A stretch of DNA of 64,000 nt, taken from an uncultured Chloroflexia bacterium. Lineage in GTDB: Bacteria > Chloroflexota > Limnocylindria > Limnocylindrales > CSP1-4. The notes beneath the pieces were generated by a model, which saw only the letters and a program-made list of their open reading frames with translations, ran no database searches and had not been told where the DNA came from. Of the stretch, positions 17,091 to 45,549 are shown one piece after another; position 1 is the stretch's first letter, and each line of letters begins with the position of its first letter. The stretch is taken from NCBI GenBank assembly GCA_963704325.1, contig OY969885.1, positions 1,383,188-1,447,187 on the forward strand, read 5' to 3'. A program made the position numbers and the translations under genes.

Positions 17091-17390
17091 CTAGATCGTG
17101 GCGATGTTTGAGACGCCGCCCACCACGCCGGCCATGACGCCGAACACGAACAGGCCCACGGCCAGGTTTCGGCGGCGTGTGGCGATGATGAACATCAGAC
17201 CCGCGGCAAAGGCCACGGTCACGACCTTGGCCAGCGTCAGTCCGGCGAGGCCGATCTCCTGGTGGAGCAGCACCACGACAGGGTTCGCCTCTGCGGCCAG
17301 CCCATGGCGGCCGATCATGACCAGGAACGATGCGTAGTCAAAGAAGTGCGCGAGAGCGAGTACGCCCATTGCTATCGCGTAGTGGGGCAC
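17091..17390 (-). CDS. small membrane protein, hypothetical
   Basis: 99 aa with 3 TM helices. Confidence 0.45.
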   Translation of the reverse strand: MPHYAIAMGVLALAHFFDYASFLVMIGRHGLAAEANPVVVLLHQEIGLAGLTLAKVVTVAFAAGLMFIIATRRRNLAVGLFVFGVMAGVVGGVSNIATI

Positions 17391-17631
17391 GGTCTTCCGA
17401 TCCAGCTGTGGACGGGACCGGGCTCGCCATTGCTCCGCGCGACCTACGGCGACCGATTGGTTTAGCCGCGCATCTCAGCTTCCCGAACTAGGTCCTGATA
17501 CTCAGGCGTGGCCGCGCTCCTGTCGATATCAGAAGCATGTACGTGTTGACCGAAGTCAACGGCCATGTACACCTCACCCCCTCGCACCCCGGTCGAGCGC
17601 ACAGGACCCGTAGTACCCAGGTCAGGGGTAC

Positions 17632-42035: not shown

Positions 42036-42995
42036 ATGACTGAGCCTGGCACGGATGAGAAGCTCACGTCACTGCGCGACCTGCTGCCCGCCACTGGCGC
42101 AGGGATTTACCTCGCGACGGCAGAGCGTGGCCCGCTGCCGGCCGAGACGGCGGCCGCGATGCGTGACGCGGACGACTGGGAGCTGCGCGTCGGGCGAGCC
42201 ACGGAGGGTCGCTCCGAGGACCTCGAGCAGCGCGTGGAAGAGGCGCGCGCAGTGCTCGCGGCGCTCCTCGTGGCAGATCCCTCGGACGTGGTCCTGACGT
42301 CAGGCGTCAACCATGCGCGGCGCCTGGCCGGGGATATCGCTGGCTCGAGCGGCCTGGCCACCGTCGACCACGTCGACCCGAACACAGGCAAGCTGGCCCC
42401 GCCGGCGACCTCGGAAGGGCCGTTCGTCGCTCTCGATGCGTCCCTGTCGGCAGGCGCCGTGCCGATTGACGCTCCGGGGCTGGGGGTGGACTTCGTCGTG
42501 CTCCCCGGGGACAAGTGGTTGCTCGGGCCGGAAGAGACGGCGGCGCTCTGGATCGGCCCGCGGGCGAGGAACCGCGGCCTCGTTCCCGCATCGGAGGGGA
42601 TCGGGCGAACGCACGTCCTCGGGCTGGCGCGCAGCGTGGGCTGGCTGGAGATGTACGTGGGCCTGCCATGGGCCTTCGATCGGACGGCCACGCTTGCCGC
42701 TCGACTGGCTGGCGGGCTGACCCAGCCCGGCGTCGAGCTGCTCACGACCAACGACTCCCTGGCGGCGATCGTCTGCTTCCGGCTGCCGGCGTGGCCGACC
42801 AATGAGCTGCTCGATGAGCTACGCCGGCGTGTTTTCGCTGTCGTCGAGCCGACGCCCGATCTGACCGCCGTAAGGGCATCCGTGGCGTGGTTCAACACCG
42901 AGGATGAAATCGACCGCTTCGCGTTGGCAGTGAGCGAGATCGCGCGCCACACGCCCGCGACCCTGCCGCGCCGCCCGCCGCTGATCGTCCGATGA
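42036..42995 (+). CDS. aminotransferase class V-fold PLP-dependent protein (short or degenerate)
   Basis: VDFVVLPGDKWLLGPEETAALW resembles the SufS/NifS region around the PLP-lysine (SGHK replaced by PGDK). Only 319 aa. Confidence 0.6.
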   Translation: MTEPGTDEKLTSLRDLLPATGAGIYLATAERGPLPAETAAAMRDADDWELRVGRATEGRSEDLEQRVEEARAVLAALLVADPSDVVLTSGVNHARRLAGDIAGSSGLATVDHVDPNTGKLAPPATSEGPFVALDASLSAGAVPIDAPGLGVDFVVLPGDKWLLGPEETAALWIGPRARNRGLVPASEGIGRTHVLGLARSVGWLEMYVGLPWAFDRTATLAARLAGGLTQPGVELLTTNDSLAAIVCFRLPAWPTNELLDELRRRVFAVVEPTPDLTAVRASVAWFNTEDEIDRFALAVSEIARHTPATLPRRPPLIVR

Positions 42996-43342
42996 CCCAG
43001 CGATCGTGGCTCGAGGTGCGCTGGCGACAGCTGCGCAACCCGCCGCCGCCAGTGCTACGGGCGGTGCTCGCAAACCTGGCCGTTGCGATCATCGGCGGCC
43101 TGTTGTTGCTCGCCTACGACGGTGCCACCGACGGCGCCGGGACCGCGCTGGCGACAGTGCTGTACGTGGGCGTGGTGATAATTGCGGGCAGCCTGTTGAC
43201 GTACCTGTGGGTCGAGCTGCCGACCGGCGCGGCGGGCGTCAGACGCAGGTCTGCGTGGGCGGGAATACTTGGCTTCTTCGCCTCGATACCCATCGCCTAC
43301 CTCGTCCTGGTCGTCCTCTTCCAGGTTCTCCCCGGGCGTTGA
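42992..43342 (+). CDS. small membrane protein, hypothetical
   Basis: 116 aa, 3 TM helices. The start overlaps the previous stop (ATGA). Confidence 0.5.
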   Translation: MTQRSWLEVRWRQLRNPPPPVLRAVLANLAVAIIGGLLLLAYDGATDGAGTALATVLYVGVVIIAGSLLTYLWVELPTGAAGVRRRSAWAGILGFFASIPIAYLVLVVLFQVLPGR

Positions 43343-43391: not shown

Positions 43392-44231
43392 ATGAAGTTC
43401 GGAGTAATCACATCCTTCGGGTCGGTTGGTGACTACGTCACGATGGCCAGGGAGGCGGAAGCCACCGGCTGGGACGGCGTATTTGCCTGGGATGACATCT
43501 CGGTTGACCGGGGTGACGTGTTCGATCCGTGGGTGGTCCTTGGCGGCATCGCGGCGGTCACGGAGCGGATCACCCTTGGCGCGATGGTCTTCTCGCTGGC
43601 GCGTCGCCGTCCATGGAAGGTCGCGCGCGAAACGATCACGCTCGACAATCTCTCAAACGGTCGGCTCGTGGTGCCGGTCGGACTGGGTGGGACGTGGGAT
43701 GGCGGCTATTCGCGTGTCAGCACCGACGATCCCTCCAGGAAGGCTCGCGCGGCCAAGCTCGACGAGTGCCTGGAGATCCTTGACCTTGCGTGGTCAGGCG
43801 CGTCAGTCAGCTACGAGGGCGAGCACTACTCGATGCGTGACCTCCGCTTTGACCCGCGACCGGTGCAACGTCCCCGGATTCCCGTGTGGCCCGTTGGGGC
43901 GTGGCCACATCCGCGATCCCTTGCTCGAGCCGCAAAGTGGGACGGCATTGTCGTGTCCGACTTTTCCGGCACGAGCACAGCGGAATCCGTCGCACCCGCC
44001 GTCGTCGCCGATGTGGCTGCCTGGATGGCCCAGCATCGAACGTTGTCAAGTCCCTTCGACATCATCGTCGAGGGCATCTCGTCCGGTTTCGACCACGCCG
44101 CGGATCGGCAGATCCTGGTGCCACTTGCCGACGCCGGCGCGACATGGTTCATCGAGAGCCGATGGGGGCCAGACCAGTCCGCAGAGACCGTTCTGGAGCG
44201 AATCCGGCGCGGGCCGCCGCAGCTTCAGTAG
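43392..44231 (+). CDS. LLM-class F420-dependent oxidoreductase
   Basis: Luciferase-like monooxygenase fold motifs (MKFGVI..., GRLVVPVGLGG). Confidence 0.8.
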   Translation: MKFGVITSFGSVGDYVTMAREAEATGWDGVFAWDDISVDRGDVFDPWVVLGGIAAVTERITLGAMVFSLARRRPWKVARETITLDNLSNGRLVVPVGLGGTWDGGYSRVSTDDPSRKARAAKLDECLEILDLAWSGASVSYEGEHYSMRDLRFDPRPVQRPRIPVWPVGAWPHPRSLARAAKWDGIVVSDFSGTSTAESVAPAVVADVAAWMAQHRTLSSPFDIIVEGISSGFDHAADRQILVPLADAGATWFIESRWGPDQSAETVLERIRRGPPQLQ

Positions 44232-44303: not shown

Positions 44304-44379
44304 GGGGGAGTAGCTCAGTGGTTAGAGCAGACGGCTTATATCCGTCCGGTCCCTGGTTCGAATCCAGGCTCCCCTACCA
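44304..44379 (+). tRNA. tRNA-Ile, anticodon UAU (reads AUA)
   Basis: Manual fold:
- acceptor GGGGGAG/CTCCCCT (one G-U pair)
- D-arm GCTC-AGTGGTTA-GAGC
- anticodon stem GACGG/CCGTC with loop cTTATAt
- variable loop CGGTC
- T-arm CCTGG-TTCGAAT-CCAGG
- discriminator A, then encoded CCA. Confidence 0.75.
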
Positions 44380-44388
44380 TTCGGCCCC

Positions 44389-45549
44389 ATGGATGCCACC
44401 CGCGCCGAGAGCGCCAAACAAGTTGCGCATGATGGCGTCGAGAGTGCACGCTCGGCGCTGATCGATCTTTCGCACCGTATCCACGCCAATCCAGAGCTGG
44501 CCTACAAGGAGCACCTCTCGTCGGGCTGGGTGGCGGAGATGCTCGAGCAGGGTGGTTTCGCGGTATCGCGCGGCGCCGGCGGAATGGCGACGGCCCTGGT
44601 CGGCACGTACGGCAGCGGCCCGTTGAACGTGGCCCTCGTGATCGAGTACGACGCTCTGCCCGAGGTGGGTCACGCCTGCGGCCACAACATCATTGCCGCC
44701 TCATCCGTTGGCGCGGCGCTGGCCCTGGTGCCACTCGCCGACAAGCTTGGCCTGCGCATCTCGGCCATCGGGACGCCGGCAGAGGAGGGCGGCAACGGCA
44801 AGGGCGCCCTGATCGACGCCGGCGTCTTCGCGGACGTGCACGCCGCCCTGATGGTCCATCCCGGGCCGACTGACGTGGCCATGCCCGAAGTGCTCGCTGC
44901 GCAGACGATCGAGGTGACCTACACCGGCCGCAGCGCGCACGCCGGCGCGTTCCCCGAGCGCGGCATCAACGCCAGCGACGCGCTGGTCATCGCCCAGGTG
45001 GCGATCGGACAGCTGCGTCAGGCGCTGATCGCCAGCGATCGCGTGCACGGCATCGTCACGCTCGGTGGCGAGGCGTCGAACATCATCCCGTCGCTGACCA
45101 AGGCTGACTACATGGTCCGCGCCGGGTCCGCGGCGCGCCTGGAGGAGGTTCGCGAACGTGTCGAGCGCTGCTTCCAGGCCGGCGCCCTGGCATCGGGAGC
45201 GCAACTGGATGTCACGCTCCGGCCCATGTACGCGGACATGATCCACGACGCCGACCTGGTCCGGCTCTATGTCGCCAACGCCGAAGCCCTGGGACGCTCG
45301 TTCGGGGGCCAGAGCGACTTCAATCGCTTCTCGACGGACATGGGCAACGTTTCCTACGTCACTCCGTCGATCCATCCCGTGCTGGGGGTCGACGCCGGTG
45401 GCGCCTCCAACCACCAGCCGGCCTTCGCTGCCGCGACCGTCACGCCGTCGGGCGACCAGGCTGTCTTTGATGGCGCGGTCGCTCTGGCCTGGACAGCGAT
45501 TGACGCGGCGCTGCACGAGCAGGTACGCGGCCGGCTTCTGGCCCGCTAG
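44389..45549 (+). CDS. M20-family amidohydrolase/peptidase (M20D, hippurate hydrolase/AbgA-like)
   Basis: HACGHN metal-binding motif plus the M20 dimerisation-domain pattern. Confidence 0.85.
   Translation: MDATRAESAKQVAHDGVESARSALIDLSHRIHANPELAYKEHLSSGWVAEMLEQGGFAVSRGAGGMATALVGTYGSGPLNVALVIEYDALPEVGHACGHNIIAASSVGAALALVPLADKLGLRISAIGTPAEEGGNGKGALIDAGVFADVHAALMVHPGPTDVAMPEVLAAQTIEVTYTGRSAHAGAFPERGINASDALVIAQVAIGQLRQALIASDRVHGIVTLGGEASNIIPSLTKADYMVRAGSAARLEEVRERVERCFQAGALASGAQLDVTLRPMYADMIHDADLVRLYVANAEALGRSFGGQSDFNRFSTDMGNVSYVTPSIHPVLGVDAGGASNHQPAFAAATVTPSGDQAVFDGAVALAWTAIDAALHEQVRGRLLAR

What the first reader, a model, noticed from the sequence alone, without database searches (positions are those of the whole stretch)
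44304..44379. tRNA-Ile with a UAU anticodon
The anticodon stem (GACGG/CCGTC) is unambiguous and the 7-nt loop is cTTATAt, giving UAU. Most bacteria decode AUA with a CAU-anticodon tRNA converted to lysidine by TilS. Bacterial tRNA-Ile(UAU) species are rare (for example Mycoplasma mobile and a few TilS-lacking lineages) and need special modification to avoid reading AUG. It is striking in a ~70% GC genome where AUA should be very rare.
Basis: partly seen in the sequence, partly recalled or inferred. Interest (0 to 1): 0.6.

Follow-up and report, generated by a model that had tools for sequence, protein, structure and literature searches.

The report
Conserved tRNA-Ile(UAU) gene in Limnocylindria
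This is a real, working transfer RNA that reads the rare isoleucine codon AUA directly with a UAU anticodon, an uncommon solution in bacteria; here it is not a one-off but an inherited feature of a whole uncultured soil and freshwater lineage (Chloroflexota, class Limnocylindria).

Summary
Window 44304-44379 (+) is a canonical 76-nt tRNA gene with encoded CCA and anticodon TAT at 44337-44339 (ARAGORN; Rfam tRNA 70.4 bits). It is the only tRNA in the window.

It belongs to a tight family found at the same chromosomal position in 32 high-GC Chloroflexota genomes (Ca. Limnocylindria and relatives) and in about 100 metagenome contigs. The family has 44 distinct sequences; 99.7% of stem positions pair, many pairs show compensatory changes, and U34-A35-U36-A37 and A73 never vary. 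ATA codons (1.7 per 1000) have the same substitution pattern as ATC and ATT, not ATG, so AUA means isoleucine. There is no GC anomaly, no phage counterpart and no mobile-element context.

The tRNA body has tRNA-Ile-type features (G3-C70, U12-A23, C29-G41). It never occurs with CAU in this lineage, which suggests descent from a tRNA-Ile2(CAU)-type gene by a C34-to-U change.

Not resolved: whether the lineage has lost TilS and tRNA-Ile2(CAU), which IleRS type it has, and whether U34 is modified.

Verdict: a new, lineage-wide member of a known rare kind, of moderate interest.

The parts
44304..44379 (+). tRNA-Ile(UAU) gene, 76 nt, with genomically encoded CCA (44377-44379)
   Evidence: ARAGORN; Rfam RF00005 at 70.4 bits; cloverleaf covariation in the family
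44330..44346 (+). Anticodon arm: stem GACGG/CCGTC and loop CTTATAT (C32 U33 U34 A35 U36 A37 U38)
   Evidence: Sequence. Stem pairs 27-43, 28-42 and 29-41 show compensatory changes across the family. The loop is invariant except position 38, which is U or C and never A.
44337..44339 (+). Anticodon TAT (UAU), complementary to the codon AUA
   Evidence: T34 is present in all 129 high-GC family loci even though position 34 was left free in both collection scans.
43392..44231 (+). Context only: luciferase-like (F420-type LLM) oxidoreductase gene inserted between the conserved upstream genes and the tRNA
   Evidence: Pfam and NCBIfam. Absent at this spot in nearly all relatives; present in L099 but on the other side of the tRNA.
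42036..43342 (+). Context only: conserved upstream neighbours, a divergent cysteine-desulfurase-fold protein (42036-42995) and a 116-aa membrane ORF (42992-43342)
   Evidence: Synteny. The linkage decays with divergence, so no functional tie is claimed.
44389..45549 (+). Context only: conserved downstream neighbour, an M20-family amidohydrolase (the ORF's first ATG is 10 nt after the tRNA; the true start may be further downstream)
   Evidence: synteny

Best explanation
The locus encodes a functional elongator tRNA that is charged with isoleucine and reads the rare codon AUA by direct U34-A pairing. It is a TilS-independent AUA decoder of the kind called tRNA-Ile(UAU), or tRNA-Ile3.

It is a vertically inherited core chromosomal gene of Ca. 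Limnocylindria-type Chloroflexota. It most likely arose from a tRNA-Ile2(CAU)-type gene by a C34-to-U change.

Shown here: the gene, its fold, its conservation, its chromosomal (non-mobile) context, and that AUA positions behave as isoleucine.

Inferred from established knowledge:
- Charging by IleRS. A35-U36 restricts the candidates to IleRS and MetRS, and MetRS requires C34.
- t6A at A37.
- Discrimination against AUG through weak U-G pairing of a probably unmodified (or restrictively modified) U34 in a particular loop context (C32, pyrimidine 38), as in M. mobile and the B. subtilis suppressor.

My further guess, at about 50%, is that this tRNA is the lineage's main or only AUA decoder and has replaced the TilS/tRNA-Ile2 system.
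For: Gene and fold.

Family: 32 Chloroflexota genome loci with 13 distinct sequences, 99.6% of cells paired, 9 of 21 pairs with compensatory changes, 0 of 500 shuffles as high, and all slid controls far lower. With metagenome contigs added: 44 distinct sequences in 129 loci, 99.7% paired, and C32, U33, U34, A35, U36, A37 and A73 invariant.

Vertical inheritance: the same gene order (ligase, desulfurase-like gene, membrane ORF, tRNA, M20, DNA methyltransferase, LuxR) holds at only 67-77% nucleotide identity. GC is uniform at about 0.68.

Decoding: window ATA codons align with Ile 55, Val 40, Leu 15, Met 1. ATA codons in relatives align with Ile 19, Val 9. This is the same profile as ATC and ATT and unlike ATG.

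Identity: G3-C70 in 44 of 44 (marks tRNA-Ile as against Met/fMet, PMC1635315), plus U12-A23, C29-G41 and A73.

Origin and replacement: with position 34 left free, the same tRNA body is only ever UAU in high-GC contigs. CAU versions occur only in unrelated contigs of 41-57% GC. Basal members and Patescibacteria UAU tRNAs carry C4-G69 and C5-G68, which are typical of tRNA-Ile(CAT).

Precedents for mechanism: PMC3575796, PMC3919564.
Against: - Nothing direct shows aminoacylation, expression or the state of U34.
- No sigma-70-type promoter or intrinsic terminator was found nearby. That scan is weak for this phylum.
- A38 and C4-G69, which are determinants for E. coli IleRS, are absent in the window's copy.
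- Whether tilS and a tRNA-Ile2(CAU) coexist in the genome is unknown, so 'main or only AUA decoder' is unproven.
- Both collection scans used patterns anchored on this tRNA, so invariance of the D arm, the T loop and part of the anticodon loop is partly imposed by the search. The stems and position 34 were free.
- Descent from tRNA-Ile1(GAU), as proposed for M. mobile, cannot be excluded, because the lineage's GAU gene was not available.
Confidence: 0.88

Rival explanations
1. A redundant AUA decoder. The genome still has TilS and a tRNA-Ile2(CAU to lysidine), and the UAU tRNA is a second, auxiliary reader of AUA, as proposed for Lactobacillus casei and plantarum, Cyanothece PCC 7424 and Ferrimonas balearica.
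For: TilS is nearly universal in bacteria, and some bacteria carry both systems (PMC3575796). Nothing here shows that tilS is absent. Only one chromosomal region of each related genome was visible.
Against: In the published 'both' cases the UAU gene is reported for individual strains or species. Here it is conserved and syntenic across a deep clade, which resembles the genus-wide, TilS-lacking cases (Bifidobacterium, Neorickettsia). No CAU gene with this tRNA body exists in the lineage's contigs, although position 34 was left free.
Confidence: 0.45
2. A horizontally acquired tRNA carried on a prophage or other mobile element, supplying a rare-codon tRNA.
For: Phages often carry rare-codon tRNAs. 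UAU tRNAs do occur in IMG/VR contigs and in tRNA arrays of two Flavobacteriia genomes (L056, L066). The flank just upstream of the tRNA is variable, with insertions of 0.7-2.8 kb in several relatives.
Against: GC is uniform. The neighbours are ordinary metabolic genes, with no integrase or phage genes. Synteny is conserved on both sides across 32 genomes. No viral contig has this tRNA body; the best match is 62 of 76 positions, in contigs of about 52% GC.
Confidence: 0.03
3. Not an isoleucine tRNA: a tRNA of another identity with a mutated anticodon, or AUA reassigned in this lineage.
For: A38 and C4-G69 (E. coli IleRS determinants; my recollection of Nureki et al. 1994) are missing. G1-U72 is unusual.
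Against: ATA positions have an Ile-type substitution profile with Met at about 1%. G3-C70 excludes Met/fMet by the criterion in PMC1635315. A35-U36 is incompatible with the anticodon requirements of LysRS, ArgRS, ThrRS and AsnRS (established knowledge). The anticodon is invariant across 44 sequence variants.
Confidence: 0.03
4. A pseudogene or chance tRNA-like sequence.
For: None beyond the absence of recognisable promoter or terminator consensus.
Against: A full-length 70-bit match to the covariance model. All canonical tertiary nucleotides are present. Strong purifying selection with compensatory changes.
Confidence: 0.01

Closest known systems
Mycoplasma mobile tRNA-Ile2(UAU) (Taniguchi et al. 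2013, PMC3575796)
   Same: A bacterial elongator tRNA with a genomically encoded UAU anticodon and A37, dedicated to AUA. It is the model for decoding without lysidine.
   Different: M. mobile is a low-GC, reduced-genome parasite with thousands of AUA codons. Its tRNA was judged closer to tRNA-Ile(GAU) (PMC1635315). Absence of tilS, an adapted IleRS (Arg865), an adapted ribosome and an unmodified U34 were all demonstrated there. None of these is known here. This tRNA is from a 68% GC free-living lineage, has a tRNA-Ile2-like body, G1-U72 and a pyrimidine at position 38.
Bifidobacterium and Neorickettsia tRNA-Ile(UAU) (TilS-lacking genera; PMC3575796, PMC8450103)
   Same: Clade-wide rather than sporadic occurrence. 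Bifidobacterium is also high-GC and Gram-positive-type (Terrabacteria).
   Different: Those genera are documented to lack tilS and to have a eukaryote-type IleRS. Both points are untested for Limnocylindria.
Bacterial tRNA-Ile2(CAU to lysidine), the TilS substrate
   Same: Same codon (AUA). Similar body: G3-C70, and in basal family members C4-G69 and C5-G68. CAU tRNAs with the same U38 loop lie directly beside tilS homologues in Sulfurihydrogenibium and in an Acidobacteriota MAG.
   Different: Position 34 is T, not C, in every family member, so TilS cannot act on it and is not needed.
Bacillus subtilis suppressor tRNA-Ile1(UAU) in tilS-deleted strains (PMC3919564)
   Same: It shows that one anticodon change yields a workable AUA reader with unmodified U34, weak AUG binding and near-normal growth.
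   Different: A laboratory G34-to-U mutation in tRNA-Ile1, not a natural conserved gene.
Eukaryotic cytosolic tRNA-Ile(UAU) and archaeal tRNA-Ile3(UAU) of Nanoarchaeum and Korarchaeum (PMC8450103)
   Same: A UAU anticodon used naturally for AUA.
   Different: Other domains of life. Eukaryotes use pseudouridine at positions 34 and 36, an intron-dependent modification (my own knowledge). No homology is implied.

Membership tests
Bacterial tRNA-Ile(UAU), the TilS-independent AUA decoder | Canonical elongator tRNA cloverleaf | tested here: met
   ARAGORN, Rfam 70.4 bits; 99.6-99.7% pairing with compensatory changes
Bacterial tRNA-Ile(UAU), the TilS-independent AUA decoder | UAU at positions 34-36 with A37 | tested here: met
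   invariant in 44 distinct family sequences
Bacterial tRNA-Ile(UAU), the TilS-independent AUA decoder | Isoleucine identity rather than Met or another isotype | tested here: met
   G3-C70 (Ile versus Met/fMet discriminator, PMC1635315), A73, U12-A23, C29-G41 and A35-U36 are present. A38 and C4-G69 are absent in the window's copy. No isotype-specific covariance model was available, so this rests on known determinants.
Bacterial tRNA-Ile(UAU), the TilS-independent AUA decoder | AUA codons are used and mean isoleucine in the organism | tested here: met
   28 ATA in 16,707 codons. The substitution profile of ATA matches ATC and ATT, not ATG.
Bacterial tRNA-Ile(UAU), the TilS-independent AUA decoder | Genome lacks tilS and tRNA-Ile2(CAU) (true of the M. 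mobile, Bifidobacterium and Neorickettsia type; not of the L. casei type) | not testable with these tools
   Neither gene is in the 64-kb window or in 0.73 Mb of related loci.
Bacterial tRNA-Ile(UAU), the TilS-independent AUA decoder | IleRS able to recognise U34 (Arg or Lys at the E. coli W905 position, or a type-2 IleRS) | not testable with these tools
   ileS is not in the window or the held loci. No literature was found for Chloroflexota.
Bacterial tRNA-Ile(UAU), the TilS-independent AUA decoder | U34 unmodified or restrictively modified; AUA bound far better than AUG on the cognate ribosome | not testable with these tools
   Needs tRNA mass spectrometry and ribosome-binding assays.
tRNA-Ile2(CAU), the TilS substrate | C34 (the target of lysidine formation) | tested here: not met
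   T34 in the window and in all 129 family loci, with position 34 unconstrained in both scans
tRNA-Ile2(CAU), the TilS substrate | Acceptor-stem signature G3-C70 with frequent C4-G69 and C5-G68 (PMC1635315) | tested here: inconclusive
   G3-C70 is met in 44 of 44. C4-G69 occurs in only 2 of 44 distinct sequences (L055, L048) and C5-G68 in only 1 (L055); both pairs are also present in the Patescibacteria UAU tRNA of L074. This fits descent from this family, not membership.
Elongator or initiator tRNA-Met | CAU anticodon; C3-G70; for fMet, a 1-72 mismatch and A11-U24 | tested here: not met
   UAU anticodon, G3-C70, C11-G24, G1-U72 wobble
Phage- or mobile-element-borne tRNA | Located in a prophage or island (integrase, phage genes, compositional shift), with a patchy distribution | tested here: not met
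   Uniform GC, metabolic neighbours, conserved synteny, no viral counterpart

The most novel reading that the evidence does not exclude
A whole class of abundant free-living bacteria (Ca. Limnocylindria, with a related C38-type sister lineage) has permanently replaced the near-universal TilS/lysidine system. It did so by converting its tRNA-Ile2 gene from CAU to UAU, and has lost tilS. The same switch may be shared with, or have happened in parallel in, many Patescibacteria. If so, this would be the largest natural TilS-independent bacterial group. It would also be the first high-GC free-living one apart from Bifidobacterium, and it would imply co-adapted IleRS, ribosome or U34 chemistry.
Probability: 0.4. 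Interest if true: 0.65.

Novelty: new member of a known kind. Interest (0 to 1): 0.45.

Why it matters
AUA decoding is a textbook case where bacteria depend on an essential modification enzyme, TilS. Natural exceptions show how the genetic code's machinery can be rewired.

The documented bacterial exceptions are a few Mycoplasma species, Bifidobacterium, Neorickettsia and some sporadic strains. A conserved, syntenic tRNA-Ile(UAU) across Limnocylindria, with similar genes in many Patescibacteria, would widen that list to large uncultured environmental lineages.

It also gives a concrete test case. One can ask whether tilS has been lost, how IleRS accepts U34, and how AUG misreading is avoided in a 68% GC genome. 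Practically, annotation pipelines and completeness marker sets that expect TilS (I recall TIGR02432 being one of the GTDB bac120 markers) and a tRNA-Ile2(CAU) may mis-score such genomes.

Tried and rejected
1. Phage or mobile origin. A viral-collection scan with the same pattern gave 46 loci, none with this tRNA body. Rejected.

2. A dedicated sulfur donor for s2U34. The conserved upstream gene has a cysteine-desulfurase fold and 2-thiolation would favour A over G. However, it scores far below family cut-offs (38 bits against 377). Its linkage to the tRNA is lost in the most divergent members and is present in only 8 of 20 C38-type contigs, and insertions separate the two genes in several genomes. 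I treat it as ordinary synteny.

3. Group I introns in four metagenome copies that break after the anticodon loop (L174, L215, L250, L257). An Rfam E-value scan found nothing, and no 3' half of the tRNA lies within 0.9-2.7 kb. Not introns; possibly half-tRNA remnants.

4. Finding tilS or ileS. They are absent from the window (Pfam over 55 ORFs). An E. coli TilS tblastn over 1.7 Mb of held loci hit only next to CAU tRNAs in other phyla.

5. Literature linking tilS, lysidine, IleRS2 or UAU tRNAs to Chloroflexota, Limnocylindria or Patescibacteria. Nothing relevant was found. Supplementary Table S1 of PMC3575796 is not held.

6. Promoter and terminator consensus scan around the gene. No sites; uninformative for this phylum.

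Full report
**Observation.** ARAGORN reports one tRNA in the 64-kb window, tRNA-Ile with anticodon tat, at 44304-44379 (+). The Rfam tRNA covariance model matches 44304-44376 end to end at 70.4 bits (gathering score 29, E = 2.5e-13) and places CUUAUAU in the anticodon loop.

Read directly, the gene has:
- a 7-bp acceptor stem with a G1-U72 wobble;
- a 4-bp D stem with the G18-G19 pair of the D loop;
- the 5-bp anticodon stem GACGG/CCGTC;
- the loop C32-U33-U34-A35-U36-A37-U38;
- a 5-nt variable loop;
- a canonical T arm (TTCGAAT loop);
- discriminator A73 and an encoded CCA.

The anticodon is at 44337-44339.

**Where it comes from.** GC content is even at about 0.68 across the window. Pfam and NCBIfam annotation of 55 ORFs chosen by third-position GC shows ordinary chromosomal metabolism: an ATP-dependent DNA ligase, Fe-S cluster assembly, beta-oxidation, fumarase, urate degradation, a large LuxR regulator and LytR-CpsA-Psr. 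There are no phage, integrase, tilS or ileS genes.

I scanned one genome per GTDB species with a pattern that fixed only the D-arm 3' side, the loop frame CT.ATAT, GGTC and the T loop. The stems and position 34 were left free. This returned 104 loci. Thirty-two of them carry the same tRNA family, and all are high-GC Chloroflexota MAGs labelled Limnocylindria, Limnocylindrales or 'uncultured Chloroflexia'. Four have a tRNA identical to the window's.

The surrounding genes are collinear with the window: ligase, desulfurase-fold protein, 116-aa membrane ORF, tRNA, M20 amidohydrolase, DNA methyltransferase, LuxR. Nucleotide identity is only 67-77%, so none of these genomes is the same species. The window's proteins sit on a single NCBI/ENA contig of 2,433,234 bp. 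That size and the GC content match the published class averages for Ca. Limnocylindria: 2.39 Mbp and 68.9% GC (PMC10608941).

**Is it a working gene?** The 13 distinct genome-derived sequences fit the cloverleaf in 99.6% of cells. Nine of 21 pairs show changes on both sides. None of 500 column shuffles reached the observed values, and every slid control fell to 33-56% pairing.

Adding those contigs gives 44 distinct sequences in 129 loci:
- 99.7% of stem cells pair;
- some pairs take up to four Watson-Crick types (for example 28-42);
- C32, U33, U34, A35, U36, A37 and A73 are invariant;
- position 38 is U (23 sequences) or C (21), never A;
- G1-U72 occurs in 38 of 44;
- G3-C70 occurs in 44 of 44.

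Caveat: the search patterns imposed the D arm, part of the loop and, in the first scan, the T loop. The informative columns are the stems and position 34.

The C38 subfamily comes from contigs of about 72% GC. It has a different anticodon stem, variable loop and T stem, yet it shares the upstream genes, so it is the orthologous locus in a sister lineage.

**What it decodes.** ATA makes up 28 of 16,707 codons (1.7 per 1000; 3.9% of Ile codons) in the window's genes. In tblastn alignments of 12 window proteins with their orthologues in the 32 loci:
- window ATA codons face Ile 55, Val 40, Leu 15, Ala 2, Met 1;
- ATA codons in the relatives face Ile 19, Val 9, Ala 5, Leu 3, Met 1.

ATC and ATT give the same Ile > Val > Leu profile, whereas ATG faces Met in 57% of cases. 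So AUA is isoleucine here.

From established knowledge, A35-U36 leaves only IleRS and MetRS as plausible synthetases, and MetRS needs C34. By the comparative criterion of Silva et al. (PMC1635315), G3-C70 marks tRNA-Ile and excludes Met and fMet. U12-A23, C29-G41 and A73 agree with what I recall as E. coli Ile determinants (Nureki et al. 1994), while A38 and C4-G69 are missing. No isotype-specific covariance model was available to me.

**Origin.** With position 34 unconstrained, this tRNA body is only ever UAU in the high-GC lineage. The 16 CAU look-alikes (A38, G1-C72) come from unrelated contigs of 41-57% GC with no shared neighbours.

Basal Chloroflexota members L055 and L048 have C4-G69, and L055 also has C5-G68. 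The Patescibacteria UAU tRNA of L074 has both pairs, which Silva et al. describe as frequent in tRNA-Ile(CAT). In the Saccharimonadales locus L074 the UAU gene sits beside an initiator tRNA-Met and an elongator tRNA-Met, exactly where a tRNA-Ile2 would complete the set.

CAU tRNAs with the same U38 loop lie immediately upstream of TilS homologues in three Sulfurihydrogenibium genomes and one Acidobacteriota MAG. That suggests they are TilS substrates, although their 3-70 pair is C-G, so their classification is not settled.

Together this favours descent from a tRNA-Ile2-type gene by a C34-to-U change. Descent from tRNA-Ile1(GAU), as proposed for M. mobile, is not excluded, because the lineage's GAU gene could not be retrieved.

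**Rivals.**
- Phage or mobile origin is not supported. There is no compositional shift, synteny is conserved on both sides, and among 46 viral contigs that match the pattern none has this body; the best reaches 62 of 76 positions at about 52% GC.
- The segment just upstream of the tRNA is variable. The window has an F420-type luciferase-like oxidoreductase there (43392-44231). L099 has that gene on the other side of the tRNA, and other genomes have insertions of 0.7-2.8 kb. This is typical of tRNA flanks and does not affect the gene.
- I considered that the conserved upstream desulfurase-fold protein might feed U34 thiolation. I dropped the idea: the protein is far below family thresholds, and the linkage decays with divergence.

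**What remains unknown.** The point that decides significance is whether Limnocylindria still have tilS and a tRNA-Ile2(CAU). I could not test it.

By analogy, genus-wide UAU genes go with TilS loss (Bifidobacterium, Neorickettsia), while the reported cases of coexistence with tilS are individual strains or species (PMC3575796). On that basis I put replacement at roughly even odds.

The mechanism of AUG avoidance is inferred from precedent. Unmodified U34 binds AUA well and AUG weakly in the B. subtilis suppressor, and in M. mobile on its own ribosome, with dependence on the anticodon-loop context (PMC3919564, PMC3575796). The invariant C32 and the pyrimidine at 38 in this family are candidates for such context, but that is speculation.

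**Comparison and verdict.** This works like the known bacterial tRNA-Ile(UAU) decoders and meets every defining feature that could be tested. The features that separate the TilS-free type from the redundant type are untested. It is not a TilS substrate, because it has T34.

It is best filed as a new, lineage-wide member of a known rare kind. Interest is moderate. It would rise if a genome census shows that tilS has been lost across Limnocylindria, and perhaps across Patescibacteria.

Noticed in passing
window 17406-17492 (-), with ORF 17091-17390 (-): A match to the Rfam c-di-GMP-II-GCG riboswitch aptamer variant (RF03170; 56.7 bits against a gathering score of 47.9). It lies directly upstream of a 99-aa hydrophobic (membrane-like) ORF and just downstream of an aldehyde dehydrogenase gene.
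   Followed up: partly
L005, L011, L012, L018, L020, L029, L039, L041, L062, L063, L064, L068, L074, L077, L086, L092, L098: Seventeen genomes labelled Patescibacteria/CPR (Saccharibacteria, Paceibacterota, Berkelbacteria, Kerfeldbacteria, Yanofskybacteria, Moraniibacteriota and others) carry a tRNA-Ile(UAU), often inside core tRNA clusters. In L074 it sits with fMet and Met tRNAs and has a tRNA-Ile2-like acceptor stem. I found no paper reporting this.
   Followed up: partly
L049 6231-7591, L085 2012-3371, L060 2649-4003, L002 1373-2247: In three Sulfurihydrogenibium genomes and one Acidobacteriota MAG, a CAU-anticodon tRNA with the unusual U38 loop (CTCATAT) lies immediately upstream of a TilS homologue on the same strand. 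This looks like a substrate-enzyme gene pair.
   Followed up: partly
L174, L215, L250, L257 (metagenome contigs): Four contigs hold only the 5' half of the C38-type tRNA-Ile(UAU), up to CTTATAC, followed by unrelated DNA. There is no 3' half within 0.9-2.7 kb and no Rfam intron match. Three share the downstream motif GTGCGTGGA and an inverted copy of part of the D arm. They may be half-tRNA remnants at junctions of integrated elements, or assembly artefacts.
   Followed up: partly
window 43392-44231 (+); L099 3894-4723: An F420-type luciferase-like oxidoreductase gene lies between the conserved upstream genes and the tRNA in the window. In L099 it lies on the opposite side of the tRNA, and it is absent in the other relatives. 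Several relatives have other insertions of 0.7-2.8 kb at the same spot. The tRNA's 5' flank is a hotspot for gene insertion.
   Followed up: partly
window 42036-42995 (+): A 319-aa protein with only a short, weak match to the cysteine-desulfurase (aminotransferase class V) fold: 38 bits against a family cut-off of 377. Its PDB matches include the phosphorothioation protein SspA. It lies next to an ATP-dependent DNA ligase and is conserved across the lineage. Function unknown.
   Followed up: partly
L035 and L076 (both from MAG DATKBB01, SMAG_U14409): One Limnocylindria bin contains two different versions of the same tRNA locus on two contigs. Both have the family's synteny, so the bin more likely mixes two strains or species than carries a true duplication.
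   Followed up: no
L116, L140, L144, L148 (IMG/VR contigs, about 52% GC): Four viral-collection contigs carry a tRNA-Ile(UAU) with a GGGCCCG acceptor stem that resembles the basal Chloroflexota and Patescibacteria type more than the window's (57-62 of 76 positions). The host and the viral status of these contigs were not examined.
   Followed up: no
window 44304 and 44375; family alignment A1: A G1-U72 wobble closes the acceptor stem in 38 of 44 family variants. It also appears in the Spirochaetota CAU/U38 tRNAs and in the tilS-adjacent Acidobacteriota CAU/U38 tRNA (L002). This is an unusual conserved feature of unknown significance.
   Followed up: no
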